Shown here: piece by piece, positions 3,314 through 44,432 of the stretch | How the letters are laid out: each line of letters opens with the position of its first letter | How positions within the stretch are numbered: position 1 is the stretch's first letter | IMG/VR virus record: IMGVR_UViG_2627854098_000004 | Length of the DNA stretch: 51,192 nt | Source: a virus | Taxonomy: Duplodnaviria; Heunggongvirae; Uroviricota; Caudoviricetes | Strand: one strand, 5' to 3' | Notes under the pieces: generated by a model | What the model saw: the letters and a program-made list of their open reading frames with translations, nothing else | Told to the model about the DNA's origin: nothing | The model's database searches: none | Translations under genes and position numbers: made by a program

Positions 3314-3451
3314 TGTTGTCACTCTGGTAGTGCCAGCCTCTCAATATCAGGTGCAGTTGATGTATCAACACGGTTCAGCAACACCCGATACTTTTTCCAG
3401 GCTTCCAGCAACGGGGTTTCTTCCTCCGTTGCATATACAGCTCACCTTTTT

Positions 3452-6160: not shown

Positions 6161-6760
6161 TCAGAATTTATAACCGACACCAACGATGAAACCGTCAGTG
6201 CGCCAGTCGCCACTGCCGGAACCTTCATAAGCAATATCAATGGCCACGGATTCGGTCGGGTTAAACTGCACGCCAGCCCCCCACGCCAGAGACGTGTCGC
6301 TGTAGCGACCGTCATCACTTCCGGTCAGCACATCGTCCGTTTTCCCCTTGTTATCAGTTACGCGGAGATAATCCCCGGAGAAAGTCGACACACGGCTGTA
6401 AGCCACGCCCGCCATCGCATACGTGCTGAACCATTCATTCACGCGTACAGACGGCCCCGCCATCATGCTGAACCAGCGGTTACGCACGGAATCTTCATGC
6501 CAGCGGGTATCGCTGTAGTGCGTTTTTTGCTCATCCTCAGCATTGGCATAACTGAAGGACGTAATCAGCCCCAGCGCGTCCGTAAACTCATAACGGTATT
6601 TCACGTTAATCCCGTTCAGATTATCGCTGCCGGGAGCGTTCGTACGGGCATGAAGATACCCCGCGCTCAGTGTGGACTGATGTTCAGACGCCCATGCAGG
6701 CGCACCGGATACGGACAGACAGATGGCTGCGGACAAAATGGCTGCACATAATTTACGCAT
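6161..6760 (-). CDS. lom: Lom outer-membrane protein (Ail/Lom family)
   Basis: 199-aa ORF with signal peptide; near-identical to lambda Lom as I recall it; position between J and stf as in lambda. Confidence 0.85.
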   Translation of the reverse strand: MRKLCAAILSAAICLSVSGAPAWASEHQSTLSAGYLHARTNAPGSDNLNGINVKYRYEFTDALGLITSFSYANAEDEQKTHYSDTRWHEDSVRNRWFSMMAGPSVRVNEWFSTYAMAGVAYSRVSTFSGDYLRVTDNKGKTDDVLTGSDDGRYSDTSLAWGAGVQFNPTESVAIDIAYEGSGSGDWRTDGFIVGVGYKF

Positions 6761-6827: not shown

Positions 6828-9800
6828 TCAGCTAATCGTGATGCCTGCAGTGGCTTTCTTCATCACAACAACCAGCAAATCGCTGATACTTGCTGTGGGA
6901 TACCAGCCATTTACCCACCATGCTGATACAGAAAACTCCAGCGTCATGTCGCCGCGACCAGCAGGCATATCAATAACACCACTGTAAACCAGCGTATTAT
7001 CCATCGCGGTACGGTTATAAATTTCAGCACCGTTTTTCTTCACTATCAGGCGGCATGACGAATAAGTATCGCTGTTCTCCCGCTCATGTCTGGCACCGCT
7101 GAAAGCCACCGCCGGAATAACAATCTGCCGGTTAAACGGCTGATCGTCATAAACCCTGACGGTAATGGTTCCTGATGGCCAACGCTTCGGTGCACGGGAG
7201 TCACGAGGGAAAGCCTTACCCACTGTTTTAACGAGATCGCCTTCAATCTGGTTTGCAGACAGTTTCCCTCTGATGACACAGTTCTCGTTAATGGTGACAT
7301 TATTGAGCGTGCCGGTATTCGCCGTGATGGCTCCACTGATATCCGCATTGCGGGCTGTCAGCCTGCCATCCGGCGTCAGGGAAAACGTCGGAGGATTGCC
7401 GGATGACGTGATGCTCACCGCAAACAGTCGCTTCAGGAACACGTCGTTCATGAACAGCTGATTCCCCTGCGCCACAAACAGCGGCGTGGTGTTGCCGTTC
7501 TCCGGGGTAATCATCGCAATGCGATCGGCCTGCAGCAGAATGTTACTCAGGGTCTGACCATCAACATCCTCAATCCCCGCACCAATCCCGGCCACATAGG
7601 GAATACCGTTTTTTGTTTTCTGCACCTTCAGCATATACATGGCATTCAGCTCATTGCGCGTGTCTGACTGAACCCGCTGGATTTGCTGTATGGTCACGGC
7701 CTGGTCACCCAGCTTTTTATCCGTGGTCGAGGTAATTTCACTCCCTTTTTTATCCACGTACTGGCGGACCTGTGCTATCTGTCGGGCGTTTTCTGACTGC
7801 CCCTGGCTGACAGTCTGTGAGATTTCACTGCTCACCCGGTCCACTTTCTGGCTCACCTGCGCGATGGCCAGTGTCTGATCCTCATTCTTTTTCGCAACCA
7901 GCTGCGTGAGGCTGTTTTCCGCCTTCCCGATTTTCCGGGTCACTTCTGCGATATCCGTGTCCATCCGCTGACGGATATCTTCTTCCAGTTGCGTGACCTC
8001 CGTACGCAGCGCTGAAGCATCAATGCGCTCTTTCAGTGCCTGACCCAGAAGCGTCTCATCTATCAGCCCCCGGAAAATTTCCAGATACCCTTCACCATCA
8101 TTGCTGGGCTGCCCGCTGGCTTCCACAAAAGCAGATTTTCCCACCAGGTTGACGCTTCGCACGTAAAACCAGAAATCCGTTCCCGGCTTAATCCGGCTCC
8201 CCTGGACAGTCCACTGACTGCCGGTCCCCAGATAACGGGCAGATTTTTCCACCTGTGCTGTGTTCGTGATGCGTTTTTTCTGAGAACCAGAATTCAAACT
8301 GTACCGTCGGGTCATACACCGCAAGACGCGGGACCGCCGTTATCTGAAAATACCCCGGCGTCAGCTCAATGGTGGCGGGTTTTGCAGGTGCGTTAATCCG
8401 GAACGATACCGACGCCGGATCGCCCTGCTGTCCCCGGGCATTTACCGCCCGGACCGTCAGCGTGTAACGCCCCAGCGCCAGCTGCCTGAAGCGGTAAGTG
8501 GTTTCCGCCGTCCGGGCCGTGCTGACCAGCCGCTCACTGCCGTCATCCGCTGTTACGGTCAGACGGAGCAGGAAGCTCACGCCCTTCACCACCTTCGGCG
8601 TGTCCCAGCGCGCCAGCACCTGATATTCCCCGCTGTCTGCGGTGACTTCGGCGGTCAGGTGCTGCACCGCTGGCGGCGTGACACCATTCACCGTGCCGCT
8701 CTGGTCGCCGTCAAAGTGCGCTCCGTTATCCACGATGGCCTCTTTTTCCGGTACATGCTGCACGGCGGTGATGGCATACGTGCCGTCATCGTTCTCACGG
8801 ATACTCACGCAGCGGAACAGGCGCTGGCGCAACGTCGGCAGCTTCAGTCCCCATACGCTGTATTCTGCAACGCCGTCAGGAACACGGCTCACTTTTACCT
8901 TCACGCCGTCGGTGACGGACTGGACCTCCACGCTGACCGGATTCCCCTGTCCGTCAGCCAGGCTTATCAGCGTGGTGCCGGAGGATGGCAGCGTGATTTC
9001 ACGGTCGAGCGTCAGTGTCCGCGTCTGGTTGTTCACCGCCAGCACGCGCCCGCCGATGCTGATCCCCGCATAGTCATCATCACAGATTTCAATGACATCG
9101 CCCGGTACATGGCGAAGCCCTTCTGCACCCACGCTGAAGTCCACGGTCTGCGTTTCCAGCAGCTCCGTTTTAATCAGCCACAGCCCGGCGCGGTGTGCCT
9201 GCCCCCGGCTGGTACAGCCAAAGGCATCCATCTTCGTGACGTTACGACCGTAACGGGCAATGGCCTGCGTGTCCTCCACAAGCTCTGTCGCCGTCTCCCA
9301 GCCGTTATCCGGGTCAATCCAGTTCACCTCAACGGCATTATGGCGGTCTTTCAGGGCGCTGAAGCTGTAGCGGAACGGCGCGCCATCATCCGGCATCACC
9401 ACATTACTGCGGTTATAGGTCCACACCTTATCCGACGGTCGGTCCTGCACGAATGTCAGCGTCTGCCCGTTCCATACCGGCATACAGCGCATCGCCGAGC
9501 AAAAATCACTGAGCACATCCCACGCCTTGCGCTGTGTGGTCAGGTACGCATTACAGGTGATGCGCGGCTCCGTGCCGCCAAAGCCGTCCGGCACTGACTG
9601 GTCGCAATTCTGGCCGATGACATACAGCGCCCATTTATCCACATCTGCCGCACCAAGACGTTTCCCCATGCCGTAGCGCGGATGGGTCAGCATATCCCAC
9701 AGACACCAGGCCATGTTGTTGCTGTATGCTGGCTTAAACGTTCCGTCCCAGATACCGCTGTATTGCCGCGTCTGCGGGTTATAGTTCGACGGCACCTGCA

Positions 9801-10527
9801 GAATGCGCCCGCGAAGATGATAATTACGGCTCACCTGCTGGCTGCCGAACTGCTCCGAGTCCACCTGTACGCCGACCAGTGCCGTGTTCGGGTAGCACTG
9901 TTTCACATCGATGATTTCGGTGTATGACGACCAGAGCGTTTTGTTCTGCAACTGGTCTGTGGTGCTGTCCGGCGTCATCCTGCGCATCCGGATATTAAAC
10001 GGGCGCGGCGGCAGGTTATCCACCACCACCGAGGCCAGATACTGCGACGTGGTTTTGCCCTTAATGGTGATGTCTTTTTCCGTCACCCAGCCACCGTTAC
10101 GTTGAATCTGAACCAGCAGGCGGACTTCCGATGGATTCCTGTCCCCCTTTGAGGTGGTTTCCACCAGTGCCTGCACGCCGAAAGTAAAACGCAGACGGTC
10201 AATGTTTGCCGACGTGATGGTCCGGGTGATCGGCGTGTCATATTTCACTTCTGTACCGAGCACCGTCTCGGAGCCGGAGGATTCAAATCCCTCCGGCGGT
10301 GTCTGCTCCTGCTCACCGGCCCGGAACACCACCGTGACGCCGAATATATTGGTATTCCCCTCACTGTCCAGCACCGGCGTACTGTTCAGCAGCACGCTTT
10401 TTAATCCATCCACCGGACCTTCAACCGGCCCTTCGCTGATGGCGTCTATCACGCTCAGCATCTGGGATGATTTCAGGTTGTCCTTCGCTTCGCGCGGGGT
10501 ATGCCCCTTACTGCTGCCTTTACCCAT
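6828..10527 (-). pseudogene. J: tail tip/host-specificity protein J, split by a frameshift in a homopolymer at 8274-8279
   Basis: ORFs 8188..10527 (lambda J-like N-terminal 740 aa) and 6828..8324 (J C-terminal part) overlap; the reading frames join at the plus-strand T6 run 8274-8279 (A6 in the coding sense); removing one base restores [17 protein letters not shown]. Confidence 0.8.
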
Positions 10528-10540
10528 TCCTCATGCTCCA

Positions 10541-10569
10541 TAAACGATAAAACCGCCCGGAGGCGGTTT
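10541..10569 (-). terminator. hairpin with following U-run in the 60-nt I-J spacer (possible attenuator)
   Basis: On the - strand AAACCGCC-TCCG-GGCGGTTT followed by TATCGTTTATGG, between the I stop (10588) and the J start (10527). Confidence 0.3.
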
Positions 10570-10587
10570 CACATAAAACATTTTGCA

Positions 10588-11260
10588 TCAGCGACCAATC
10601 ACCACAACCTGACCACCATCCCCTTCGTCTGCCGTGCTGATCTCCTGAGAAACCACGCGTGACCCCACGCGCATTTCACCGTACAGAACCGGCAGAACAT
10701 TGCCCTGGGCAACCATGTTATCCAGTGAGGAGAAATAGGTGTTCTGTTTGCCGTTATCCGTTGTCTGTGTACGGGGAGTTCTGGCTTTCGGTGCCAGCAT
10801 CTGCGCCACACCACCGAGCACCATACTGGCACCGAGAGAAAACAGGATGCCGGTCATACCACCGGCCCCAATGGCTGCCCCCCATGCTGCAAGGGTGGCT
10901 CCGGCGGTAAAGAATGATCCGGCAATGGCGGCAGCCCCCAGGACAATCTGGAATACGCCACCTGACTTGGCCCCGGCGACTCTGGGAACAATATGAATCA
11001 CAGCGCCATCAGGCAGAGTCTCATGTAACTGCGCCGTTAACCCGGACGTGCTGACGTCCCGCCCGGCAATCCGTACCTGATACCAGCCGTCGCTCAGTTT
11101 CTGACGAAACGCCGGGAGCTGTGTGGCCAGCGCCCGAATGGCTTCAGCCCCCGTTTTCACACGAAGGTCGAGTGCGGCGGCCAAATCGTTGTAAATCCCC
11201 GTAAAGGCAGATGCGCGCCATGCCCGGTGACGCCAGAGGGAGTGTGTGCGTCGCTGCCAT
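10588..11260 (-). pseudogene. I: tail tip assembly protein I with a +1 insertion about 29 codons in (near 11172)
   Basis: I-body ORF 10588..11184 (lambda I-like); the I N-terminus MAATHTLPLASPGMARICLYGDLQRFGRR lies in the K frame starting at 11260; gene span is 673 nt against 672 expected. Confidence 0.6.
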
Positions 11261-11902
11261 TTGTCGGTATAACCTCTCTCGTTTGCTCAGTTGTTCAGGA
11301 ATATGGTGCAGCAGCTCGCCATCACCACAGTAAATGGCGGCATGATTCGGCACCGATGAACCAAAACAGCACAGCAGCACATCGCCCGGTTGTGCTGATG
11401 ACAACGGCACCTGATACAGCCCTGTGGCCTCCAGATTATCCAGATAGAGATTCTGGCCGTTACGCCACCAGTCATCCTCACGATAAAAGTCCGGCATCTC
11501 AATCCCCGCCAGATGATAAGCATCCCGGAACAGTGTGTAACAGTCCGTCACACCGTGCTCAAAGCGCCGCCCGGTGAGATGCGGCACACAGCGGAACTTA
11601 TGAATCGTCCCCCGGCAGACCAGCCACCACGGCAAATCACTCTGCACCTGCAGCCGCCGGTCGGCCTCACTCAGCCAGGGCAGACCACCGGGGTGGCTGT
11701 GGACCAGCGCCACAATCTCACCCTGCATTTCTGCCTGCAGCCAGTCTTCCGGCGACATACGGAAATACGCCTCCGGCTCACCGGAGATATTCACGCAGGG
11801 GAAATATCTTTCCCCCTCCGGCGTGCTTACCACGAAGCCGCACGACTCCGCTGGCGCACATCGCCGGGCGTGCGCCAGAATCGCTGATTCTGTCTGTGTC
11901 AT
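11144..11902 (-). CDS. K: tail tip assembly protein K (MPN/JAMM HSHPGG motif plus NlpC/P60-like Cys-His-His); C-terminus altered by frameshift
   Basis: 252-aa ORF starting 5 nt after the L stop; a lambda-type frame would end at 11159-11157; here an extra base near 11271 shifts the C-terminal about 40 residues into the I-start frame. Confidence 0.65.
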   Translation of the reverse strand: MTQTESAILAHARRCAPAESCGFVVSTPEGERYFPCVNISGEPEAYFRMSPEDWLQAEMQGEIVALVHSHPGGLPWLSEADRRLQVQSDLPWWLVCRGTIHKFRCVPHLTGRRFEHGVTDCYTLFRDAYHLAGIEMPDFYREDDWWRNGQNLYLDNLEATGLYQVPLSSAQPGDVLLCCFGSSVPNHAAIYCGDGELLHHIPEQLSKRERLYRQMAATHTLPLASPGMARICLYGDLQRFGRRTRPSCENGG

Positions 11903-11907
11903 GGGAT

Positions 11908-12606
11908 TTACTGCGAAAGTTTGTTAATGGAAAGGAAGCCGCCAAAGTTGCCGACGTTATTGCGGAACTTACAACCGCTCAGGCATTTGCTGCATTTATC
12001 CTTCGTGATATCGGACGTTGGCTGGTCATATTCATCCGCGACAGCCGGACCGCTATAACCGCACTCGTCACCGCGATAGGTCCAGGTGCAGGTGTTGGCC
12101 AGCATGATACGTCCCGGAAAAACAGCGCCATCCGTTTCCGTCGGCGTGGACAGTACAAAGGAGGCACTCACCGCGCTCAGTTCGCTGCACTGCTCAATGC
12201 GCCAGCGGCTGATCACCTCCTGCTCCGGATCGGCGTCACTGTTTCCGTTGACGAAGTTCACCGCATCCAGAAAACGGGCGTAAACCTTACGCCGGACCAC
12301 CGTTCCGCCGACCAGACTCTGCAGATCTTCCGCCATCCCTGTGACCATACCGTACAGGTTAGAAACCGTCAGCGTGGGGCGCGTACTGGTGCCTTTGCCA
12401 TTCAGTTCAAAACCGCTCCCCTGAATGGGATACGGCTGATACTGTCGCCCCTGCCAGGTGACCGGCTCACCTTTTTCGTTCTGCTCATTACAGAAAAAAT
12501 AACGTTCTCCACCGACCTCTGTCAGGTCGATTTCCCAGAGCACCACGCTGGCCGACTGCTCCGCACGGGTGCATTCATTCAGTGTTTCCTGCCGGATATC
12601 CTGCAT
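11908..12606 (-). CDS. L: tail tip assembly protein L
   Basis: 232 aa; near-identical to lambda gpL; ATGA overlap with the M stop. Confidence 0.9.
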   Translation of the reverse strand: MQDIRQETLNECTRAEQSASVVLWEIDLTEVGGERYFFCNEQNEKGEPVTWQGRQYQPYPIQGSGFELNGKGTSTRPTLTVSNLYGMVTGMAEDLQSLVGGTVVRRKVYARFLDAVNFVNGNSDADPEQEVISRWRIEQCSELSAVSASFVLSTPTETDGAVFPGRIMLANTCTWTYRGDECGYSGPAVADEYDQPTSDITKDKCSKCLSGCKFRNNVGNFGGFLSINKLSQ

Positions 12607-12935
12607 CAGTTCACCACCTGTTCAAACTCTGCGCTGAACTCAACACGCAGCATACTGACCCGCGACGACCATTTTGCGCAGGTCACCTTTATCTGCCGCC
12701 ACTCATAAGGCGGCGTCCACAGAAAGGCTTTCCAGCCCCCGTGCTCTTCCAGAAACAACTCCAGTACCGTGGCCTCCTCACGGGGGACAGAAAGCGTCAC
12801 GCTGTACGTTTTCAGGTTGGCATTCAGCCCGGCAGGCGCTCGCTGGGAATAGCCATCACCAAAGCGCACCTTTCTTACAGAAGGGACCGAAGCCACATCC
12901 ATACCGGGTTTCACTTTCCAGCGGAAGGTCTTCAT
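12606..12935 (-). CDS. M: tail tip assembly protein M
   Basis: 109 aa; near-identical to lambda gpM. Confidence 0.9.
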   Translation of the reverse strand: MKTFRWKVKPGMDVASVPSVRKVRFGDGYSQRAPAGLNANLKTYSVTLSVPREEATVLELFLEEHGGWKAFLWTPPYEWRQIKVTCAKWSSRVSMLRVEFSAEFEQVVN

Positions 12936-15496
12936 CGTCCACCTCCGGAGAACAGGCCACCATCACGCATCTGTGTCTGAATTTCATCACGGGCACCCTT
13001 GCGGGCCATGTCATACACTGCTTTCATCATCTGTGGACCTGGCAGACCATTCGTACCGTCGTTCTGAATCACCACGTTGTTGTTCTGCTCAAACCTGATA
13101 CCCTCTGAACGCCGCATTTGCGCCGGACTTCCGGTGCCACCGACATAACCGCCGGTGGCATAGCCGCGCATCAGCCGGTAGAGATTTCCCACGCCAATCC
13201 GGCTGGTTGCCTCCTTCGTGAAGACAAATTCACCACGGTGAACAATCCCCGCTGGCTCATATTTGCCGCCGGTTCCCGTAAATCCTCCGGTTGCAAAATG
13301 GAATTTCGCCGCAGCGGCCTGAATGGCTGTACCGCCTGACGCGGATGCGCCGCCACCAACAGCCCCGCCAATGGCGCTGCCGATACTCCCGACAATCCCC
13401 ACCATTGCCTGCTTAAGCAGAATTTCTGTCATCATGGACAGCACGGAACGGGTGAAGCTGCGCCAGTTCTGCTCACTGCCGGTCAGCATCGCCGCCATAT
13501 TCTGTGCAATACCATCAAAGGTCTGCGTGGCTGCACTTTTAACCTGCGACATACTGTCCGTGGCGCTCTCTTCCCACTCACTCCAGCCGGACTTCAGGCC
13601 TGCCATCCAGTTCCCGCGAAGCTGGTCTTCAGCCGCCCAGGTCTTTTTCTGCTCTGACATGACGTTATTCAGCGCCAGCGGATTATCGCCATACTGTTCC
13701 TTCAGGCGCTGTTCTGTGGCTTCCCGCGCTGCCTGCCGGTCAGTCAGCCCCCGGTTTTTCGCATCAATGGCGGCCCGTTTTGCCCGTTGCTGCTGTGCGA
13801 ATTTATCCGCCTGCTGCGCCAGCGCGTTCAGGCGCTCCTGATACGTAACCTTGTCGCCAAGTGCAGCCAGCTGGCGTTTGTACTCCAGCGTCTCATCTTT
13901 ATGCGCCAGCAGGGATTTCTCCTGTGCAGACAGCTGGCGACGTTGCGCCGCCTCCTCCAGTACCGCGAACTGACTCTCCGCCTTCCACAAATCCCGGCGC
14001 TGCTGGCTGATTTTCTCATTCGCTCCGGCATGCTTCTCCAGCGTCCGGAGTTCTGCCTGAAGCGTCAGCAGGGCAGCATGAGCACTGTCTTCCTGACGAT
14101 CGCCCGCAGACACCTTCACGCCGGACTGTTTCGGCGTTTTTCAGCGTCGCTTCATTAATCCTTTTTCGCCGCCGCCATCAGCGTGTTGTAATCCGCCTGC
14201 AGGATTTTCCCGTCTTTCAGTGCCTTATTCAGTTCTTCCTGACGGGCGGTATATTTCTCCAGCGGCGTCTGCAGCCGTTCGTAAGCCTTCTGCGCCTCTT
14301 CGGTATATTTCAGCCGTGACGCTTCGGTATCGCTCTGCTGCTGCGCATTTTTGTCCTGTTGAGTCTGCTGCTCAGCCTTCTTTCGGGCGGCTTCAAGCGC
14401 AAGACGGGCCTTTTCACGATCATCCCAGTAACGCGCCCGCGCTTCATCGTTAACAAAATAATCATCCTTGCGCAGATTCCAGATGTCGTCTGCTTTCTTA
14501 AACGCAGCCTCTGCCTTAATCAGCATCTCCTGCGCGGTATCAGGACGACCAATATCCAGCACCGCATCCCACATGGATTTGAATGCCCGCGCTGTCCTGT
14601 CTGCCCAGGTCTCCAGCGTGCCCATGTTCTCTTTCAGGCGGCGGGTCTGGTCATCAAACCCTTTCGTCGCGGCCTCGTTCGCCGCCTGCAATGCCCCGGC
14701 CTCTTCGCCGGAACGCTGCAACTGAGCAACATACGCAATCTGCTCCGCCGTCACGTTATGGAACTGGCGCGCCATCGCTGTCAGCCCCGACGTCGGGTCA
14801 GTGGTCAGCTTCCCGAAGGCTTCAGCGACCTTGTCCACCTCCACGCCGGATGCAGAGGAGAAACGCGCCACACTCTGGCTGATGGACGCAATCTGAGCCT
14901 CACCGCTTACCCCCGCCTTAACCAGTGCGCTGAGTGACTCGCTGGTCTGGTTAAACGTCAGCCCTGCCGCCTGCCCGGCTCTGGACAGGACCAGCATGCG
15001 ATCTGCCGTCAGACCCGACTGATTGCCGGAAAGGACCAGCGTTTTGTTGAAATCGGACAGGGTTGAGTTGCCCTGATACCAGGCATACGCCAGCGCACCG
15101 GTCGCCACCGCCAGCGAGGTGGCCCCCACCATCGGCAGGGTGATCGCACCGGCAAGCCCCCTGAACATGGGGATCATCCCGCCGAAGGAGTCCTTAACCT
15201 GACCACCCTGTTGCAGCAGGATCAGCCACGGACTTTGCCCGCCTGCAAGCTGCGTGGCCACGTCGGTGAACTGTGCAGGCAGCATACGCATGGCGGCTTT
15301 ATACTGCCCGACGGAAATCCCCGCTTTCTGTGCAGCCAGCGCCTGTCGGCCTCAGCGACTGTTCAACGACTGCCGCTGTTTTTTTCGCATCACTTTCCGT
15401 ACCGGAAAAATGACGCCTGACTCTGGCCATCTGCTCGTCAAATCTGGCCGCATCCAGACTTAAATCAACGACCAGATCGCCTACCGGTTCAGCCAT
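12932..15496 (-). pseudogene. H: tape measure protein H, broken into three ORFs by three +1 insertions
   Basis: ORFs 15299..15496 (H N-terminus, 65 aa), 14155..15291 (378 aa) and 12932..14119 (395 aa) are colinear with lambda gpH (853 aa); span is 2565 nt against 2562 expected; first and last ORFs share a frame, the middle 1.2 kb is +1. Confidence 0.8.
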
Positions 15497-15923
15497 ACCG
15501 GACTCCTCCTGCGATCCCTTCTGATACTGTCATCAGCATTACGTCATCCTCCGTCATGCCCGCCATATCCGGGGAAGCGGGGATAACTTCATTTCCGTCC
15601 GGGTCAAAGCGGACGCCTCCGGTAAGCCCTGCCGCTTTCTGCATCAGCACATCATCTTCAGGCTCTTCGTCATCCTCACGCCGGTTCAGCAAACTGAAAT
15701 CCAGCGGATGCATATCCGGATCGCTGAAAAACAGGCTGAGCACAGTGTACGTCAGCCCGGAAAAGTGCATATCCAGCAGAACATCATGAAAATAATGGGT
15801 ACTGTAAAAGCGGTGCCAGTCGGCATACTCCGTGGATGACATCCCGGCAAGCATGGCGCGCCAGTCAGGTCGCCCCATCTCTCGCGCCAGTTTCAGGGCA
15901 AAACTCAGCTCACCGTCGAACAC
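15489..15923 (-). CDS. T: T portion of the tail assembly chaperone G-T (made by programmed -1 frameshift from G)
   Basis: T ORF 15489..15923 overlaps the end of G; near-identical to lambda gpT. Confidence 0.85.
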   Translation of the reverse strand: MFDGELSFALKLAREMGRPDWRAMLAGMSSTEYADWHRFYSTHYFHDVLLDMHFSGLTYTVLSLFFSDPDMHPLDFSLLNRREDDEEPEDDVLMQKAAGLTGGVRFDPDGNEVIPASPDMAGMTEDDVMLMTVSEGIAGGVRYG

Positions 15924-16327
15924 TTTCCCGCAGAAACAGGCTCTGCAGGCCCGGAGTCCTCTGCCTGGTCAGGGGCATCATTCACCACAAACCCATACAT
16001 ACCGGACAGCCGGTACACCACGTTTTCAGCATGAGAAATTGCCTCCGCGGGCCAGGTGGTAAGCACTTCCTGCTCAATCTGTTTAACGGCTTCATTCATG
16101 GAAGGCTGCTTTGTCTTCTGCGGATGGTTATGCCACAGGGACATCGCCACCACAAAAGCACCGGTTCTGATGGCGTCTTCCACAGTAACCTGCCGGTTGC
16201 TGTCTGACTCCGCCTGTTCTGCCTGCTGTTTCATCAGGGCGAGATGCTCAATACGCTGCAGGGCTGACAGTTCAGAAAGCGTGACGGTCACGCCGTTATG
16301 TTCAAATGATTCGGTTTTCAGGAACAT
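15905..16327 (-). CDS. G: tail assembly chaperone G
   Basis: 140 aa; near-identical to lambda gpG. Confidence 0.9.
   Translation of the reverse strand: MFLKTESFEHNGVTVTLSELSALQRIEHLALMKQQAEQAESDSNRQVTVEDAIRTGAFVVAMSLWHNHPQKTKQPSMNEAVKQIEQEVLTTWPAEAISHAENVVYRLSGMYGFVVNDAPDQAEDSGPAEPVSAGKCSTVS
15923..15929 (-). promoter_or_regulatory. programmed -1 ribosomal frameshift slippery heptamer GGGAAAG (G to G-T)
   Basis: The - strand reads GCG GGA AAG TGT ... in the G frame; a -1 shift gives GGG AAA GTG TTC GAC GGT, which is the start of the T ORF. Confidence 0.8.
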
Positions 16328-26117: not shown

Positions 26118-26219
26118 TTTACGGATGCAATATTAAAAAAACAAAAAGTTATATTCGAGAAGTACCGTAACCGGCTCATTTAAACCGTCTGGTCTGTTTC
26201 CTCCGGCTCTACAAAAATA

Positions 26220-26897
26220 ATGTCCATCATTTTTAATGGACACTATCGTATGAAACACCGGACCTGGATCACTGAAGCTTTACGTCTTCACTTTGAAGAA
26301 CATTTACCCCGGGTTGTGGCCGGGCGTCGCCTGGGTGTACCAAAATCAACAGTTTGTAGTATGTTCGTGCGCTTTCGGAGAGCTGGCCTTTCGTGGCCTT
26401 TGCCCGCAGGCATGTCGGAGCAGGAACTTGATGCCTGCCTTTACGGACAATTTTCCACGGTACCAGTCGTACGTCCTGAAAGCACCGTTATATCCGAAGC
26501 CCCCGTGGTAAAAAAACGTCCCCGGCGGCCCAACTTCCCTTATGAGTTTAAAATCGCCTTAGTGGAGCAGTCACTGCAGCCCGGAGCCTGTGTGGCGCAG
26601 ATCGCCCGGGAAAACGGAATCAACGATAACCTGCTCTTCAACTGGCGCCATCAATACCGGAAAGGTGGCCTGCTGCCTTCCGGAAAAAATATGCCGGCAC
26701 TGCTTCCCGTGACGTTAACGCCGGAGCCGGATAATAAAATCCCGGCCCCCGCACAGGAACCAGAGCAGATAAATACACCGTCCGACAGTCTGTGTTGTGA
26801 GCTGGTTCTGCCGGCCGGAACTCTCAGGCTTAAAGGTAAACTGACGCCGGCGTTATTACAGACACTTATCCGCGAAATAAAAGGGAGCAGCCACTGA
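26220..26897 (+). CDS. IS66-family accessory protein TnpA (start uncertain)
   Basis: ORF has an IS66 orf1-like C-terminal part (PNFPYEFKIALVEQSL...LLFNWRHQYRKG); the N-terminal extension may not be translated. Confidence 0.6.
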   Translation: MSIIFNGHYRMKHRTWITEALRLHFEEHLPRVVAGRRLGVPKSTVCSMFVRFRRAGLSWPLPAGMSEQELDACLYGQFSTVPVVRPESTVISEAPVVKKRPRRPNFPYEFKIALVEQSLQPGACVAQIARENGINDNLLFNWRHQYRKGGLLPSGKNMPALLPVTLTPEPDNKIPAPAQEPEQINTPSDSLCCELVLPAGTLRLKGKLTPALLQTLIREIKGSSH

Positions 26898-27244
26898 TGA
26901 TATCTCTCCCTGCAGGTTCGCGTATCTGGCTGGTTGCAGGTATCACCGATATGCGAAATGGCTTTAACGGCCTGGCATCAAAAGTTCAGAACGTCCTGAA
27001 GGATGACCCGTTCTCCGGACACCTGTTCATCTTCCGCGGACGCCGGGGTGACCAGATAAAAGTGTTGTGGGCTGACAGTGACGGACTGTGCCTCTTCACC
27101 AAACGCCTGGAGCGGGGCCGCTTCGTCTGGCCAGTCACCCGTGACGGCAAGGTGCACCTTACTCCGGCTCAGTTATCCATGCTTCTTGAAGGTATCAACT
27201 GGAAGCACCCGAAACGAACGGAACGCGCTGGAATCCGCATATAA
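26897..27244 (+). CDS. IS66-family TnpB
   Basis: 115 aa; [27 protein letters not shown] signature. Confidence 0.85.
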   Translation: MISLPAGSRIWLVAGITDMRNGFNGLASKVQNVLKDDPFSGHLFIFRGRRGDQIKVLWADSDGLCLFTKRLERGRFVWPVTRDGKVHLTPAQLSMLLEGINWKHPKRTERAGIRI

Positions 27245-27263
27245 CCCGTTGTAAAGTGAGGAT

Positions 27264-28835
27264 ATGGACACCTCACTTGCTCATGAGAACGCCCGCCTGC
27301 GGGCACTGTTGCAGACGCAACAGGACACCATCCGCCAGATGGCTGAATACAACCGCCTGCTCTCACAGCGGGTGGCGGCTTATGCTTCCGAAATCAACCG
27401 GCTGAAGGCGCTGGTTGCGAAACTGCAACGTATGCAGTTCGGTAAAAGCTCAGAAAAACTTCGTGCAAAAACCGAACGGCAGATACAGGAAGCACAGGAG
27501 CGAATCAGCGCACTTCAGGAAGAAATGGCGGAAACGCTGGGTGAGCAATATGACCCGGTACTGCCATCCGCCCTGCGCCAGTCTTCAGCCCGTAAACCGT
27601 TACCGGCCTCACTTCCCCGTGAAACCCGGGTTATCCGGCCGGAAGAGGAATGCTGTCCTGCCTGTGGTGGTGAACTCAGTTCTCTGGGATGTGATGTGTC
27701 AGAGCAACTGGAGCTTATCAGCAGCGCCTTTAAGGTTATCGAAACACAACGTCCGAAACAGGCCTGTTGCCGGTGCGACCATATCGTGCAGGCACCAGTA
27801 CCTTCAAAACCCATTGCACGCAGTTATGCCGGAGCGGGGCTTCTGGCCCATGTTGTCACCGGGAAATATGCAGACCATCTGCCGTTATACCGCCAGTCAG
27901 AAATATACCGTCGTCAGGGAGTGGAGCTGAGCCGTGCCACACTGGGGCGCTGGACAGGTGCTGTTGCTGAACTGCTGGAGCCGCTGTATGACGTCCTGCG
28001 CCAGTATGTGCTGATGCCCGGTAAAGTCCATGCTGATGATATCCCCGTCCCGGTCCAGGAGCCGGGCAGCGGTAAAACCCGGACAGCCCGGCTGTGGGTC
28101 TACGTCCGTGATGACCGTAACGCCGGTTCACAGATGCCCCCGGCGGTCTGGTTCGCGTACAGTCCGGACCGGAAAGGTATCCATCCACAAAATCACCTGG
28201 CCGGTTACAGCGGTGTGCTTCAGGCCGATGCTTACGGTGGTTACCGGGCGTTATACGAATCCGGCAGAATAACGGAAGCCGCGTGTATGGCTCATGCCCG
28301 GAGAAAAATCCACGATGTGCATGCAAGAGCGCCCACCTACATCACCACGGAAGCCCTGCAGCGTATCGGTGAACTGTATGCCATCGAGGCAGAGGTCCGG
28401 GGCTGTTCAGCAGAACAGCGTCTGGCGGCAAGAAAAGCCAGAGCCGCGCCACTGATGCAGTCACTGTATGACTGGATACAGCAACAGATGAAAACACTGT
28501 CGCGTCACTCAGATACGGCAAAAGCGTTCGCATACCTGCTGAAACAGTGGGATGCACTGAACGTGTACTGCAGTAATGGCTGGGTGGAAATCGACAACAA
28601 CATCGCAGAGAACGCCTTACGGGGAGTGGCCGTAGGCCGGAAAAACTGGATGTTCGCGGGTTCCGACAGCGGTGGTGAACATGCGGCGGTGTTGTACTCG
28701 CTGATCGGCACATGCCGTCTGAACAATGTGGAGCCAGAAAAGTGGCTGCGTTACGTCATTGAACATATCCAGGACTGGCCGGCAAACCGGGTACGCGATC
28801 TGTTGCCCTGGAAAGTTGATCTGAGCTCTCAGTAA
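27264..28835 (+). CDS. IS66-family transposase TnpC
   Basis: 523 aa; zinc-ribbon CxxC...CxxC and IS66 transposase core. Confidence 0.85.
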
Positions 28836-30501: not shown

Positions 30502-30795
30502 ATGAAAAAAATGTTGTTTTCTGCCGCTCTGGCAATGCTTATTACAGGATGTGCTCAACAGACGTTTACTGTTGGAAACAAACCTACAGCAGTAACACCA
30601 AAGGAAACCATCACCCATCATTTCTTCGTTTCGGGAATTGGGCAGAAGAAAACTGTCGATGCAGCAAAAATTTGTGGTGGTGCAGAAAATGTTGTTAAAA
30701 CAGAAACCCAGCAAACATTCGTAAATGGATTGCTCGGTTTTATTACTTTAGGCATTTATACTCCGCTGGAAGCGCGTGTGTATTGCTCACAATAA
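30502..30795 (+). CDS. bor: Bor lipoprotein (serum-resistance family)
   Basis: Start MKKMLFSAALAMLITGCAQQ; near-identical to lambda Bor; opposite strand to the lysis genes as in lambda. Confidence 0.9.
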   Translation: MKKMLFSAALAMLITGCAQQTFTVGNKPTAVTPKETITHHFFVSGIGQKKTVDAAKICGGAENVVKTETQQTFVNGLLGFITLGIYTPLEARVYCSQ

Positions 30796-32585: not shown

Positions 32586-33668
32586 ATGAAAAAATTAACA
32601 GTGGCAATTTCTGCTGTAGCTGCATCAGTACTGATGGCGATGTCTGCTCAGGCAGCTGAAATTTATAATAAAGACAGTAACAAGCTGGATCTATACGGGA
32701 AAGTTAATGCCAAGCACTACTTCTCCTCTAATGATGCAGATGATGGTGATACTACTTATGCCCGTCTTGGCTTCAAAGGTGAAACCCAAATCAACGATCA
32801 ACTGACTGGTTTCGGTCAGTGGGAATATGAATTCAAAGGCAACCGTGCTGAATCTCAAGGTTCTTCCAAAGACAAAACCCGTCTTGCATTTGCAGGCCTG
32901 AAATTTGGTGATTACGGCTCAATCGATTACGGCCGTAACTACGGTGTAGCATACGACATCGGTGCGTGGACTGACGTTCTGCCAGAATTCGGTGGTGATA
33001 CCTGGACCCAAACAGATGTGTTCATGACTGGTCGCACTACTGGTGTTGCAACTTATCGTAACAACGACTTCTTTGGTCTGGTCGATGGCCTGAACTTTGC
33101 TGCTCAGTATCAGGGTAAAAATGACCGCACTGACGTAACTGAAGCCAATGGTGATGGTTTCGGTTTCTCCACTACTTATGAGTATGAAGGATTCGGCGTG
33201 GGTGCAACCTATGCTAAATCAGATCGCACTGACGGTCAGGTCGCCTATGGTAAGAGCAAATTCAATGCCTCCGGCAAAAATGCGGAAGTATGGGCTGCAG
33301 GCCTGAAATATGATGCGAACAATATCTATCTGGCTACCACATATTCTGAAACTCAGAATATGACCGTTTTTGGTAATAACCATATTGCAAACAAAGCACA
33401 AAACTTTGAAGCAGTAGCACAATATCAGTTTGACTTCGGTCTGCGTCCATCTGTTGCTTACCTTCAGTCAAAAGGTAAAGACCTTGGTGTTCATGGTGAC
33501 CGAGACTTAGTCAAGTATGTCGATGTCGGTGCTACTTACTACTTTAATAAAAACATGTCCACTTTTGTTGATTACAAAATCAACTTAATTGACGATAGTA
33601 AGTTTACCAAAACAGCTGGTATTGATACCGACGACATCGTCGCTGTAGGTCTGGTTTATCAGTTCTAA
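32586..33668 (+). CDS. phage-borne general porin (OmpC/OmpF/NmpC-Lc family)
   Basis: ORF 32526..33668; start ATG 32586 with RBS AAGGG; signal peptide ...AMSAQA then AEIYNKD, C-terminal F; between Q and S on the opposite strand, as for nmpC in DLP12. Confidence 0.9.
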
Positions 33669-36877: not shown

Positions 36878-37575
36878 ACACTTGCTCCTTTCAGTCCTAA
36901 CTTAGCTTTAATTTCTGCGATCTTCGCCAGCGCCTGAACACGATTTAGAGGTCTGCCGCCCATGACAGGAAGTTGTTTTACTGGTTCAGGTATCGTCTCA
37001 CCACGGTTAATTCGCGCTGTCATACAGGTCAGTTCATCGGCAGCCTTGCGTCGTAATTCCGCGTCAGTCAGCGCATTGGCCCGCATGTTCTGGTACAGGT
37101 TGGTAACCAGCCAGTAGTGCGCGTTCGATTTCCACGGATAAGACTCTGCATCCGGATACAGGCCTCGCTTCCGGCAATACTCGTAAACCATATCAACCAG
37201 CTCGCTGACGTTTGGCAGTCCGGCGATAACGGATGCTTCTTCCCGGCACCATGCAACAAACTGCCCGGGTGATGGCAGAAATGGTCGATTCTGCCGACGG
37301 GCTACGCGCATTCCTGCGTTAACCTGTTCCATTGTGGTGATCCCGTTTTCCCGGAAAGCCAGAACCCACTGGCGGCGGATTTCGTTCAGTTCGTTCTGGT
37401 CACGGTTAGCCAGACTCGCCGGGAAAGTTGCCAGTAACTGGCTGAACACACCGTTGATGATCTGCGCTACCTGCTGTACCTGCGGCTTTTCGTCGTACTG
37501 TTCCGGCATGTTGTTGGCGATCCGACGCATCTGCTCACGGTCAAAATTAACCATCTGTGCGGCGATGTTTTTCAT
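36874..37575 (-). CDS. P: replication protein P (DnaB loader)
   Basis: 233 aa; near-identical to lambda P; ATGA overlap with the O stop. Confidence 0.9.
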   Translation of the reverse strand: MKNIAAQMVNFDREQMRRIANNMPEQYDEKPQVQQVAQIINGVFSQLLATFPASLANRDQNELNEIRRQWVLAFRENGITTMEQVNAGMRVARRQNRPFLPSPGQFVAWCREEASVIAGLPNVSELVDMVYEYCRKRGLYPDAESYPWKSNAHYWLVTNLYQNMRANALTDAELRRKAADELTCMTARINRGETIPEPVKQLPVMGGRPLNRVQALAKIAEIKAKLGLKGASV

Positions 37576-38470
37576 AAATCCACCCCGTAAATCCAGTCAG
37601 TGTTTGTCAGGTCGAGTTTTGGTTTGCAGGCTGTCACACCTGCCTGTTGCTTGTTACGGTTGATTTCGAGCTGGGTCCACTTGTCGCGGAGTTTGGCCGG
37701 GCTCAGCACGTTACCGGACCAGAAGTTGTCCTGGCATGCCCAGCGGAACAGTACACACATGTCGCGATGGTTACGTCCGTCACGTTCACGCATCAGGCGG
37801 ATATCGTTAGCCCACCCTGCAAAATTCGGTTTTCTGGCTGATGGCGCGATGGTCTTCACCATGTCAAACATCCATTCTGCGGCGGTCAGGTCTTCTGCTG
37901 TCCCCCACTTGCTGCCGCTCTGAATTGCAGCATCCGGTTTCACCACAGAAAGGTCGTTTTCTGGCTGGTCAGAGGATTCGCCAGAATTCTCTGACGAATA
38001 ATCTTTTCTTTTTCTTTTGTAATAGTGTCTTTTGTGTCCCCCTGTTTTGAGGGATAGCAATCCCCCAATTTGAGGGATGTTTTATCCCTCGTTTTAGGGG
38101 ATTTTCCCTCGTTTTGAGGGATACACCATTCTGAGATGTTTTTATTTGGTCCAAACATGCCGCCTTGCTGCTTGATAATATTCATTCTGACGAGTTCTAA
38201 CTTGGCTTCATTGCACCGTTTGACGGGTAACTTTGTAATCTCGCTAAGTTGAGAATCGGTGATTCTGTCCATTGGTTTATTCCATCCATAGGTTTTACGC
38301 AGAATGGCAAGCAGCACTTTAAACTGTCGCTTGGTCAGATCTGCGCCTGAATAAGCCTCAAGCAGCATATTTGATAGTCTGGCGTAACCATCATCGAGAT
38401 CTGCCACATTACGCTCCTGTTTGGCAAAGTTACCTCTGCAGAAGTTGAGTATTTTTGCTGTATTTGTCAT
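37572..38470 (-). pseudogene. O: replication initiator O, split by a 1-nt deletion in the AT-rich ori segment
   Basis: ORFs 37940..38470 (O N-terminus) and 37572..38060 (O C-terminus) overlap; total 899 nt against 900 expected; the frame change maps to the plus-strand T5 run 38009-38013. Confidence 0.75.
38041..38120. repeat. ori iterons (four roughly 19-bp O-binding repeats) inside the O gene
   Basis: On the - strand four tandem copies of TCCCTCAAAACGAGGGA-like repeats, followed by an A/T-rich segment at 37990-38040. Confidence 0.85.
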
Positions 38471-41611: not shown

Positions 41612-41709
41612 GATCACCCAACCACATAAGCTGTGGGATGCAATGCCGAAGCAACCGTCTCAGGAGGAGCTTCGAGATTGCATCGCCAAAGTTTATTCGG
41701 GAGGAATCC

Positions 41710-41798
41710 ATGTCCAGAAAAACAGAATTTAAAGGCACCGCAGCTTCTCGCCGTAGAGCTCGTCGCGCAAATCTGCAAAGTCAGGAGGCGATCAGCTC
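41710..41798 (+). pseudogene. N: N antiterminator, 5' fragment (codons 1-29), interrupted by IS66
   Basis: ATG 41710 with RBS GGAGGAA; arginine-rich N-terminus MSRKTEFKGTAASRRRARRA; reading frame continues at 44249 after the IS and one copy of the target duplication. Confidence 0.55.
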
Positions 41799-41835
41799 GT
41801 AAGCGTGCAGCAAGAACCGTATTGACGGGGATGTG

Positions 41836-43374
41836 TTATTCAGTCGGCAGTGCTACGCGCCAGGGGAGCAGTTCGCCGACCCGGTTTATCGGCCAGTCGG
41901 CTATGACGTCAAGGACATAGCGGAGGTAGCTTTCTGGCTCCACTCCGTTCAGTTTGCACGTCCCGATCAGGCTGTACAGCAGCGCTCCCCGCTCTCCTCC
42001 ATGATCCGAACCGAAGAACAGGTAGTTTTTGCGGCCCAGACTGACCATCCGCAACGCATTTTCAGCGATGTTATTGTCCGCCTCAGCCCAGCCATCATCT
42101 GCATAGTACGTCAGCGCCGGCCACTGGTTCAGGGCGTATGCGAACGCTTTCGCCAGTTCTGAGTGTCGCGACAGGGTTTTCATCTTTTCACGCAGCCAGC
42201 TTTCCAGGGATTTCAGCAGCGGTTTCGTTTTCAACTGACGTTCGGCAAGGCGCTGCTCCGCCGTCATTCCCCTTATCTCTGCCTCGATGGCGTACAGTTC
42301 GCCGATCCGTTTCAGCGCTTCCTCCGTCAGGGCTGACGGGGTGCGAACGTGCACATCGTGGATTTTACGGCGGGCGTGAGCCCAACAGGCGGCTTCCGTT
42401 ATCCGGCCATCCCGGTACAGCTCGTTGAACCCGGCGTATGCATCCGCCTGCAGTACACCACTGAACCCCGCAAGATGGGTCTGCGGATGGATGCCTTTTC
42501 TGTCCGGGCTGTAAGCGAACCACACCGCCGGCGCCAGCGTTGACCCGGCGTTACGGTCGTCACGAACGTAGGTCCATAACCGCCCGGTCTTCGTTTTCTT
42601 ATTGCCTGGCAACAGCACCGGGACAGGCGTGTCATCAGCATGGAGCTTACCGTCAGTCAGCACATAGCCATGAAGCGCCTCTTCCAGCGGAGACAGCAGC
42701 CGGCAGCATGCATCCACCCAGCCCGACAGCAGTGAACGGCTCAGCTCCACACCTTGCCGGCCGTATATTTCTGACTGGCGATACAGCGGGGTGTGCTCTG
42801 CATACTTCGAGGTCAGCACGCGGGCCAGCAGCCCCGGTCCGGCGATACCCCGCTCGATGGGCCGCGAAGGTGCAGGTGCCTGCACGATGGCATCGCACTG
42901 AGTACAGGCATGTTTTTCCCGTACCGTCCGGATAACCCGGAAGGCGCTACGCATCAACTCCAGCTGTTCGGCGGTATCCTCGCCCAGATAGCTCAGTGAA
43001 CCGCCGCAGTTCGGGCAGCACGGCGCCGCAGGCAACAGTCGCTTTTCGTCACGGGGTAGTGATTCAGGGAACGGCTTACGGGTGCGGGTCTGACGCAACG
43101 GACGCTGTACTGCCGGGTCATACACCCTACCAGTCAGCGTATCGCTCTCTTTCTGAAGCCGGTTCAGATCGGCTTCCATTTGTGCGATACGGCGGGAGAC
43201 TTTTTCGGAACGACTGCCGAAGTTCATCCGGCGGAGTTTATCCAGCTGCGCCTGCAGATGGTCTATTTCGCGCTCCCGGTTGCTCAGCTTTTCCTGCAGG
43301 GCGTGGATCAGCGCTTCCTGTTCGGCCAGGCGCTGTTTCAGCAGGAAGATGTCGTCAGAAGAGATGTCGTTCAT
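41836..43374 (-). CDS. IS66-family transposase TnpC
   Basis: 512 aa; IS66 transposase with zinc-ribbon CxxC motifs. Confidence 0.85.
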
Positions 43375-43423
43375 AAGCCCGTATTTTACCGGGCTTATTC
43401 TGTGACAACCAGGATAAAGAGAT

Positions 43424-43771
43424 TTACAGCATGGTCAGGGAGGTCAGCAGCCGCTTAGGCTGTCGCCAGTCGATACCTTCCAGCAGCATCGCCAGCTGCG
43501 CCTGTGTAAGGAACACTTTGCCATCACGGGCTGACGGCCAGGCGAAGCGCCCACGCTCCAGCCGTTTGGTCAGGAGGCACAGTCCGTCACCGGTGGACCA
43601 CAGCAGTTTAACCTGACTGCCGCTGCGGCCCCGGAAAATGAAAACATGGCCGGACATGGGATCGTCTTTCAGCGCCGTCTGTACTTTCGCAGCCAGGCCG
43701 TTGAAGCCATTTCTCATATCAGTGATACCGGCAACCAGCCAAATTTTGGTCCCGGAAGGTAACGGGATCAT
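43424..43771 (-). CDS. IS66-family TnpB
   Basis: 115 aa; [27 protein letters not shown]. Confidence 0.85.
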
Positions 43772-44169: not shown

Positions 44170-44240
44170 TACTTATTTGGTGGACACCACTTTGTCTAAT
44201 TCGTCAGATTCTGACCAGACGGTTCAGGCTGTACGCTTAC

Positions 44241-44432
44241 ATCAGCTCCGACAAGCTACACAGGCCAACCCCTTCACGAGTGGTCTTGCAATGCAAGCTC
44301 AAACCAGCAATGAGAGCAGAAGTGATAACTCTGACAACGTTGACCAGAAAATATGAAGGTTCAACTTGTCTTCCGAACGTAGCTCTTTACGCGGCAGGCT
44401 ACCGGAAATCAAAACAACTGACGGCGAGATGA
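44241..44432 (+). pseudogene. N: N antiterminator, 3' fragment
   Basis: In-frame continuation of the 41710 ORF once the IS and one target-duplication copy are removed; stop TGA at 44430-44432; reconstructed N is 90 aa. Confidence 0.5.

What the first reader, a model, noticed from the sequence alone, without database searches (positions are those of the whole stretch)
8188..8324. J gene frameshift in a homopolymer run
The N-terminal and C-terminal J ORFs overlap, and the frames meet at a plus-strand T6 run (8274-8279). Deleting one base gives a continuous J of about 1230 aa. Homopolymer indels are typical both of real slippage mutations and of sequencing error.
Basis: seen in the sequence. Interest (0 to 1): 0.35.

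Follow-up and report, generated by a model that had tools for sequence, protein, structure and literature searches.

The report
Likely sequencing-error frameshift in J
The broken lambda-type tail-tip gene J in this E. coli prophage is almost certainly a one-base homopolymer miscall in an old 454-only genome assembly, not a biological frameshift, so it is ordinary.

Summary
The window is E. coli APEC IMT5155 (NZ_CP005930.1), 100% identical over 50 kb. J lies on the minus strand at 6828-10527. Its two reading frames meet at a plus-strand T6 run (8274-8279; GAA AAA ACG on the coding strand). Removing one base gives a single 1232-aa ORF with the complete lambda gpJ domain architecture.

The extra base is very probably not real:
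- Two independent complete genomes (DE17, VTB96815v) carry the same prophage. They match each other exactly over 100 kb and have T5 and an intact J, with no substitutions in J.
- Of 926 E. coli records matching the 80 bases around the site, only IMT5155 has T6.
- The repaired protein occurs exactly on 16 contigs. The 779-aa truncated product occurs only in IMT5155.
- Over about 96 kb of unique sequence, IMT5155 differs from both relatives by 14 one-base indels, 13 of them in A/T runs of 5-8, and by no substitutions.
- IMT5155 was sequenced by 454 pyrosequencing alone (about 23x, Newbler).

Neighbouring "frameshifts" in O, K and the tape-measure gene have the same kind of origin. A real strain-specific slippage mutation remains possible (about 8%). 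Programmed recoding is rejected. Interest is low.

The parts
6828..10527 (-). Whole J (gpJ, tip attachment / host specificity protein) gene. It is 3700 bp in this record and 3699 bp in all close relatives.
   Evidence: RefSeq L282_RS20670 gpJ, 'frameshifted'; the same gene is intact in DE17 and VTB96815v (WP_129666703.1, 3699 bp); the repaired product has the full gpJ Pfam architecture; lambda J structure 8iyk, E=0.
8274..8279 (-). Homopolymer run: T6 on the plus strand, A6 on the coding strand (codons E750, K751 and the first base of codon 752). This is the site of the one-base excess.
   Evidence: sequence; it is the only difference from DE17 and VTB96815v in all of J, and both have T5; 1 of 926 records has T6.
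8188..10527 (-). N-terminal ORF as it reads in the record: 779 aa, made of 751 genuine J residues plus 28 out-of-frame residues.
   Evidence: this exact product is found on one contig only, IMT5155 itself (AJB39010.1).
6828..8273 (-). C-terminal part of J in the other frame. It holds the rest of the second Ig-like domain, a coiled-coil-like insert, the tail-tip fibre domain and the C-terminal receptor-binding domain.
   Evidence: translation. Ig_J_second 716-818, Phage_Tail_Tip 946-1073, Ig_GpJ_C 1102-1232 in the repaired protein.
8188..8324 (-).

Best explanation
The sixth T (A on the coding strand) at 8274-8279 is a homopolymer-length overcall in the published IMT5155 assembly, which was made from 454 pyrosequencing reads alone. 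In the real chromosome the run is most likely T5. J would then be one intact 1232-aa lambda-type tip attachment protein, identical to WP_129666703.1 of strains DE17 and VTB96815v. Shown here: the extra base is unique to this record, the intact allele exists elsewhere, IMT5155 shows an indel-only difference pattern, and the sequencing method is known. Inferred: that the error arose in base calling or consensus building. Pyrosequencing reads a run as one light pulse whose intensity must be converted to a length. The site also sits where nucleotide similarity between the J genes of the strain's two lambdoid prophages drops sharply. That is a place where a repeat-limited contig end would be expected, and this may have contributed.
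For: (1) Window 1-50000 is 100.000% identical to NZ_CP005930.1, E. coli APEC IMT5155 (J).
(2) The IMT5155 paper states that the genome came from 454 GS Junior/FLX Titanium shotgun and 8-kb paired-end reads, about 23-fold coverage, Newbler 2.7, with Sanger used only for gaps. No Illumina data are mentioned (PMC4232414).
(3) DE17 (duck, China) and VTB96815v (chicken, South Africa) carry the same prophage. They are identical to each other at every one of 50,000 aligned bases. In J, the window differs from both only at the T run, T6 against T5, with 0 substitutions in 3.7 kb. Both have an intact 3699-bp J.
(4) In the window outside the patch 11137-15350, the only other differences are two more one-base run-length changes: A7 against A8 at 26134-26141, and T5 against T6 at 38008-38013. 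The second one frameshifts the O replication gene.
(5) In the adjacent 50 kb of chromosome, IMT5155 differs from both relatives by 11 one-base indels. Ten are in A/T runs of 5-8. There are 0 substitutions, and DE17 and VTB96815v are again identical to each other.
(6) Together that is 14 indels and 0 SNPs in about 96 kb, or about 0.015%. This is the same order as the 0.03-0.04% error rate reported for 454 assemblies, where more than 97% of errors were homopolymer-associated, more than 95% were in A/T runs, and none were substitutions (PMC1564139).
(7) About 2% of runs of 5 or more are affected (13 of 652). J has 14 such runs, so one error in J is unsurprising.
(8) An 80-base query centred on the run matches 926 E. 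coli records. Only IMT5155 is an exact match. The listed best hits all align over 79 bases.
(9) All 39 listed full-length J matches other than IMT5155 itself span 3699 bases. So do induced phages PhiR49_2 and PhiR40_1, which have an annotated intact J.
(10) The repaired 1232-aa sequence exists exactly on 16 contigs. The 779-aa truncated product exists on 1, IMT5155.
Against: No reads or flowgrams were available, so the run length in IMT5155 DNA was not observed directly.

The prophage is already defective in all three strains: N is split by an IS66 element, a second IS66-family element sits upstream of the terminase genes, and the tail fibre assembly gene is truncated. J is therefore probably not under selection in the host, and a real inactivating slippage would be tolerated.

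Nine of the 11 flank errors are undercalls, whereas the J site is an overcall. Overcalls do occur in this record, however: A8 against A7, and T6 against T5 and T4 against T3 in the second prophage.

The sequencing platforms of DE17 and VTB96815v were not established.
Confidence: 0.9

Rival explanations
1. The extra base is real. It would be a recent replication-slippage insertion in the T5 run that inactivated J in the IMT5155 lineage or laboratory stock, as part of the decay of an already defective prophage. The product would then be a 779-aa fragment lacking half of the second Ig domain, the tip fibre and the receptor-binding domain.
For: Homopolymer runs are genuine hot spots for one-base indels (established knowledge). 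The prophage is defective in all three strains: N is interrupted by IS66, ISCro1 is inserted upstream of the terminase genes, and tfa is truncated. Loss of J would therefore cost the host nothing. RefSeq takes the sequence at face value and calls the gene 'frameshifted'.
Against: The state is unique to one 454-only record among 926 matching records and among all gene calls in the protein collection.

The same record shows 13 further one-base indels and no substitution against two mutually identical relatives over about 96 kb. From my own knowledge of E. coli mutation-accumulation work, spontaneous indels are roughly ten times rarer than base substitutions. Fourteen indels with zero SNPs is therefore not a plausible real spectrum, about 1e-14 under that ratio. 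A mismatch-repair mutator would add many transitions as well.

Once most of these differences are accepted as artefacts, nothing singles out the J site as the real one.
Confidence: 0.085
2. The A6 run is real and functional. It would be either a recoding site (+1 ribosomal frameshift at AAA-A, or transcriptional slippage) or a phase-variable switch that controls production of full-length J.
For: Lys-tRNA could in principle re-pair from AAA to the overlapping AAA one base downstream. The needed shift is +1, and both frames are open across the overlap. A genuine programmed -1 frameshift (G/GT, GGGAAAG at 15923-15929) exists in the same tail module, so recoding is used by this phage type.
Against: No relative keeps the interrupted arrangement. 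Every other J examined is a single ORF with A5, so there is no conservation, which is the hallmark of programmed recoding.

The site has none of the known +1 stimulators. The 0-frame A-site codon is ACG, not a stop or a starved codon, and no Shine-Dalgarno-like GGAGG/AGGGGG lies just upstream (sequence; features of prfB-type sites from established knowledge).

Six A's is shorter than the 8-9 or more usually needed for appreciable transcriptional slippage or for contingency-locus phase variation (own knowledge). Tract length is not polymorphic among strains.
Confidence: 0.01

Closest known systems
Pyrosequencing (Roche 454) homopolymer-length errors that create false frameshifts or pseudogenes in unpolished assemblies
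   Same: The record was made from 454 reads only. The differences from near-identical genomes are exclusively one-base indels, almost all in A/T runs of 5 or more, with no substitutions. Their rate is of the order published for 454 assemblies. The affected genes are intact in relatives.
   Different: The J site is an overcall in a run of only 5, while most of the other errors seen here are undercalls in runs of 6-8. Read-level proof is missing.
Bacteriophage lambda gpJ (tip attachment / host specificity protein, TipJ family)
   Same: The repaired product has FNIII-A_GpJ, Phage-tail_3, Ig_J, Ig_J_second, Phage_Tail_Tip and Ig_GpJ_C domains in lambda order. It aligns to the lambda J chains of solved tail-tip structures (8iyk and others, E=0). 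The gene sits between the I-type tail assembly gene and lom/stf, as in lambda.
   Different: It is 1232 aa against 1132 aa for lambda J. The extra length is a heptad-like insert between the second Ig domain and the tip-fibre domain (the query 839-940 region is not covered by the lambda match). The C-terminal receptor-binding region is a different allele. In this record only, the ORF is interrupted.
Genuine pseudogenisation of tail genes in cryptic lambdoid prophages of E. coli
   Same: The prophage is visibly degraded by IS66-family insertions and a truncated tfa, all shared by the three strains.
   Different: Those real lesions are shared by all three genomes. The J, O, K and H frameshifts are private to the 454 record.
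Programmed -1 frameshift of lambda tail chaperones G/GT
   Same: It lies in the same tail module. The conserved slippery heptamer GGGAAAG is present at 15923-15929 on the minus strand near the end of G. G and T are annotated as overlapping genes in all three strains.
   Different: The G/GT site is conserved in every relative and has a canonical slippery heptamer. The J site is found in one record only and has no recoding signals.

Membership tests
Lambda gpJ / TipJ tail tip attachment protein | Characteristic domain series (FNIII-A, Phage-tail_3, two Ig-like domains, tail-tip fibre, C-terminal receptor-binding Ig) | tested here: met
   all six Pfam families are above their curated cut-offs, in lambda order, on the one-base-repaired translation.
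Lambda gpJ / TipJ tail tip attachment protein | Sequence homology to experimentally solved lambda J | tested here: met
   8iyk_J, E=0, 2059 bits. Residues 1-838 align to 1-838, and a second stretch covers the C-terminus.
Lambda gpJ / TipJ tail tip attachment protein | Position in the tail module: downstream of H-M-L-K-I, upstream of lom and the side tail fibre | tested here: met
   the annotated order is tape measure, M-like, L, K (C40 peptidase), I (tail assembly), gpJ, Ail/Lom, tail fibre.
Lambda gpJ / TipJ tail tip attachment protein | Single uninterrupted reading frame | tested here: not met
   there are two frames in this record. The feature is met in DE17, VTB96815v, phages PhiR49_2 and PhiR40_1, and all other listed relatives.
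454 homopolymer sequencing artefact | The record derives from pyrosequencing without an independent polishing technology | tested here: met
   (PMC4232414): 454 shotgun and paired-end reads, Newbler, about 23x, Sanger only for gaps.
454 homopolymer sequencing artefact | Differences from near-identical genomes are run-length indels without substitutions, with this record as the odd one out | tested here: met
   14 one-base indels, 13 in A/T runs of 5-8, and 0 SNPs in about 96 kb. DE17 and VTB96815v are identical to each other at every position.
454 homopolymer sequencing artefact | Reads or flowgrams are ambiguous or favour the shorter run at the site | not testable with these tools
Programmed +1 ribosomal frameshift (prfB type) | The interrupted arrangement is conserved among homologues | tested here: not met
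   1 of 926 records has A6; relatives have a 3699-bp single ORF.
Programmed +1 ribosomal frameshift (prfB type) | Slow-to-decode or stop codon in the A site, plus an upstream Shine-Dalgarno-like stimulator | tested here: not met
   the context is UUC UCA GAA AAA ACG CAU. ACG is a sense codon, and there is no GGAGG-like element upstream.
Transcriptional slippage or phase-variable homopolymer switch | Long run (about 8-9 or more) with tract-length polymorphism among isolates | tested here: not met
   the run is 6; no other record shares the 6-state. The length threshold comes from my own knowledge.

The most novel reading that the evidence does not exclude
The extra A is really present in IMT5155, and full-length J is still made at a low level by +1 slippage of Lys-tRNA on AAA-A, or the run toggles between 5 and 6 as a switch. 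This would be a strain-specific, non-conserved recoding or phase-variation site in a tail-tip gene.
Probability: 0.01. Interest if true: 0.35.

Novelty: not a real feature. Interest (0 to 1): 0.05.

Why it matters
The biological importance is very small. If the frameshift is an artefact, J of this defective iss-carrying lambdoid prophage is simply intact, as in its relatives.

The practical value is as a data-quality warning. The IMT5155 reference, a widely used APEC model strain, appears to carry about one homopolymer indel per 7 kb in the regions examined. It also has a probably collapsed repeat in the tail modules of its two lambdoid prophages. Its "frameshifted" pseudogenes, including J, O, K and the tape-measure gene here, should therefore not be read as gene decay or used in pseudogene or prophage-integrity comparisons until the genome is polished.

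Tried and rejected
1. Programmed +1 frameshifting, transcriptional slippage and phase variation were rejected. The arrangement is not conserved, no stimulatory signals are present, and the run is too short.

2. A mutator (mismatch-repair-deficient) background as the source of many real homopolymer indels was rejected. No substitution accompanies the 14 indels.

3. The possibility that the two relatives, rather than IMT5155, carry the errors was rejected. They are independent records from different countries and are identical to each other at 100,000 of 100,000 positions. Their genes are intact. Hundreds of other records share T5, and the intact protein is on 16 contigs.

4. I looked for a paper giving the sequencing platform of DE17. 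None of the titles or abstracts returned was a DE17 genome report, and I opened none of them, so the platforms of the two comparison genomes remain unknown.

5. I asked whether the site lies inside the exact repeat shared by IMT5155's two prophages. It does not. Exact identity runs from 8855 to 14135. However, the roughly 98% nucleotide similarity between the two J genes ends at about 8276, right at the run. A contig-end effect is therefore possible but unproven.

Full report
**What is there.**
The plus strand at 8270-8282 reads TGCG TTTTTT CTG, with a T6 run at 8274-8279. J is on the minus strand. Its coding strand reads ...TTC TGG TTC TCA GAA AAA ACG CAT CAC....

- The ORF 8188..10527 (779 aa) begins [18 protein letters not shown]... 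and is J-like up to ...FEFWFSEK. It then runs through 28 unrelated residues to a stop.
- The frame of ORF 6828..8324 carries ...[22 protein letters not shown]... and continues to the J C-terminus.
- The two mechanical ORFs overlap at 8188-8324.
- Removing one base of the run gives a single 1232-aa ORF with no internal stop.

**Identity of the gene.**
The repaired protein matches six gpJ Pfam families, all above their cut-offs:

| Pfam family | Residues |
|---|---|
| FNIII-A_GpJ | 86-207 |
| Phage-tail_3 | 330-496 |
| Ig_J | 610-714 |
| Ig_J_second | 716-818 |
| Phage_Tail_Tip | 946-1073 |
| Ig_GpJ_C | 1102-1232 |

It also matches the lambda J chains of solved tail-tip structures (8iyk and others, E=0). 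The shift falls at codons 750-752, inside the second Ig-like domain. A truly frameshifted gene would therefore lack the tip fibre and the receptor-binding domain and would be non-functional.

**Where the window comes from.**
Window 1-50000 is 100.000% identical to NZ_CP005930.1, the chromosome of E. coli APEC IMT5155 (J). RefSeq annotates 6828-10527 as gpJ, pseudogene, 'frameshifted'. In the same prophage it also marks the C40 peptidase (K), the tape-measure gene (H) and the replication gene (O) as 'frameshifted'.

**Comparison with relatives.**
Two other complete genomes carry the same prophage at the same chromosomal place: DE17 (duck, China) and VTB96815v (chicken, South Africa). Both have J as an intact 3699-bp gene encoding WP_129666703.1, and K, H and O are also intact.

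Base-by-base comparison gives the following:
- DE17 and VTB96815v are identical to each other at all 50,000 positions.
- In J, the window differs from both only by T6 against T5, with no substitution.
- Outside a patch at 11137-15350, the only other differences in the window are A7 against A8 at 26134-26141 (intergenic) and T5 against T6 at 38008-38013. The latter is what frameshifts O.

Wider searches agree:
- An 80-base probe centred on the run hits 926 E. coli records. Only IMT5155 matches exactly, and the listed hits align over 79 bases.
- All listed full-length J matches other than IMT5155 span 3699 bases.
- Induced phages PhiR49_2 and PhiR40_1 (98.2% and 97.6% identical) have an annotated intact J.
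- The repaired 1232-aa sequence exists exactly on 16 contigs in the protein collection. The 779-aa product exists on one, IMT5155 (AJB39010.1).

**Is the record error-prone in this way?**
I compared the adjacent 50 kb of chromosome in the three genomes. DE17 and VTB96815v are again identical to each other. IMT5155 differs from both at 11 places, all one-base indels, ten of them in A/T runs of 5-8, with no substitution.

With the three sites in the window, that makes 14 indels and 0 SNPs in about 96 kb of non-repeated sequence, or about 0.015%. About 2% of all runs of 5 or more are affected (13 of 652). J contains 14 such runs, so one error in J is not surprising.

The genome paper states that IMT5155 was sequenced only with 454 GS Junior/FLX Titanium reads, at about 23-fold coverage, assembled with Newbler, with Sanger reads used only to close gaps (PMC4232414). 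A validation study of 454 assemblies found error rates of 0.03-0.04%. More than 97% of those errors were associated with homopolymers, more than 95% were in A/T runs, none were substitutions, and there were extra errors near contig ends (PMC1564139). The pattern seen here is exactly that signature.

From my own knowledge of E. coli mutation-accumulation studies, real spontaneous indels are roughly ten-fold rarer than substitutions. An all-indel spectrum of 14 differences is therefore not credible as biology.

**The neighbouring patch.**
Window 11137-15350 (K, L, M, H) differs from the same prophage in DE17 and VTB96815v by 99 SNPs and several indels. It is, however, 99.7-99.8% identical to a second lambdoid prophage next to sitABCD in those strains.

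Within IMT5155 itself, window 8855-14135 is 100% identical to that second prophage. This includes two extra bases (G at 11172, A at 11271) that frameshift K in both copies. Three further extra bases (14136, 14155, 15350) are private to the window copy and break H.

The simplest reading is that one repeat contig was collapsed and used at both loci, with low-quality joins. Real gene conversion is the alternative. Either way, the tail module of this record is unreliable.

Nucleotide similarity between the two J genes falls from about 98% to about 65% right at the T run, near 8276. That is where a repeat-limited contig would end, which may have contributed to the error. This is an inference.

**Rivals.**
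A real, private slippage mutation cannot be excluded without reads. The prophage is already defective in all three strains (N split by IS66, a second IS66-family element upstream of the terminase genes, truncated tfa), so J loss would be tolerated. However, nothing distinguishes this site from the 13 other indels that are clearly artefactual. I give it about 8%.

Programmed recoding or phase variation is rejected:
- There is no conservation of the interrupted state.
- There is no stop or hungry codon and no SD-like stimulator.
- The run is only six bases long.

By contrast, the genuine programmed -1 site of the tail chaperones G/GT (GGGAAAG, 15923-15929, minus strand) is present, and the overlapping G and T genes are annotated in all three genomes.

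**Verdict.**
The finding is real in the sequence but is most probably (about 0.9) a 454 homopolymer overcall. The gene is an ordinary lambda-type J, intact in nature. Interest is low. The useful by-product is a warning about pseudogene calls in the IMT5155 reference.

Noticed in passing
window 37572-38470 (minus strand), run at 38008-38013: The lambda O-type replication gene is annotated 'frameshifted' in IMT5155. The only difference from DE17 and VTB96815v, where it is intact at 900 bp (WP_000185431.1), is T5 against T6 inside TTTTCTTTTTCTTTT. This is the same kind of artefact as in J, here an undercall.
   Followed up: partly
window 26134-26141: An intergenic A7 run where both relatives have A8. 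It lies between the small terminase gene and an IS66-family element. It is the third private one-base run-length difference in the window.
   Followed up: partly
window 8855-14135 and 11137-15350; L008 36276-40409: The K-L-M-H tail genes of this prophage carry the allele of IMT5155's second lambdoid prophage (next to sitABCD). They are 100% identical to it over 5.3 kb, including two extra bases (11172 G, 11271 A) that frameshift K (11157-11902) in both copies. In DE17 and VTB96815v the two prophages differ by about 99 SNPs here. This is a probable collapsed repeat contig used twice; gene conversion is the alternative.
   Followed up: partly
window 12932-15496 (minus strand); extra bases at 14136, 14155, 15350: The tape-measure gene H is annotated 'frameshifted'. 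Three single extra bases, not in long runs, are private to this copy. Both the relatives' matching allele and IMT5155's own second prophage lack them. They look like low-quality consensus or gap-fill errors.
   Followed up: partly
window 15923-15929 (minus strand), genes G 15905-16327 and T 15489-15923: The canonical lambda G/GT programmed -1 slippery heptamer GGGAAAG sits near the end of G. It is a genuine recoding site in the same tail module and a useful contrast to the J site.
   Followed up: partly
window 41677-44432 and 26220-28835 and 3319-3432: The prophage is defective independently of J. The N antiterminator gene is split by an IS66 element (tnpA-C at 41836-44148; N fragments at 41677-41799 and 44241-44432). 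An ISCro1 (IS66-like) element sits at 26220-28835 upstream of the terminase genes. The tail fibre assembly gene is a 114-bp remnant. All of these lesions are shared by DE17 and VTB96815v, so they are real.
   Followed up: partly
window 30502-30795, 32586-33668, 6161-6760: Cargo genes of the prophage: iss (increased serum survival lipoprotein), an ompC-like porin gene between Q and the lysis genes, and an Ail/Lom family outer membrane protein gene next to J.
   Followed up: no
window 48604-48815: A ZapA-like gene is annotated 'frameshifted' in all three genomes. Unlike J, this lesion is shared and is therefore likely real, or an annotation-model issue.
   Followed up: no
L008 43845 and 43907 (IMT5155 second prophage, record about 4928844-4928906): Two more private run overcalls in IMT5155 (T4 against T3 and T6 against T5 in DE17). 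They coincide with a tail gene being annotated as tiny fragments (84-bp and 102-bp 'phage tail protein' CDSs).
   Followed up: partly
L009 (IMT5155 4154089-4204088, just outside the window): The adjacent integrative island encodes SMODS nucleotidyltransferase and SLATT genes, a MobQ relaxase, and BfpA/PilV type IV pilus genes. Several IMT5155 CDSs there are shorter than in the relatives (for example RepL 558 against 570 bp, and hypothetical genes of 240 against 558 bp and 789 against 879 bp). These sit at the positions of the homopolymer indels.
   Followed up: partly
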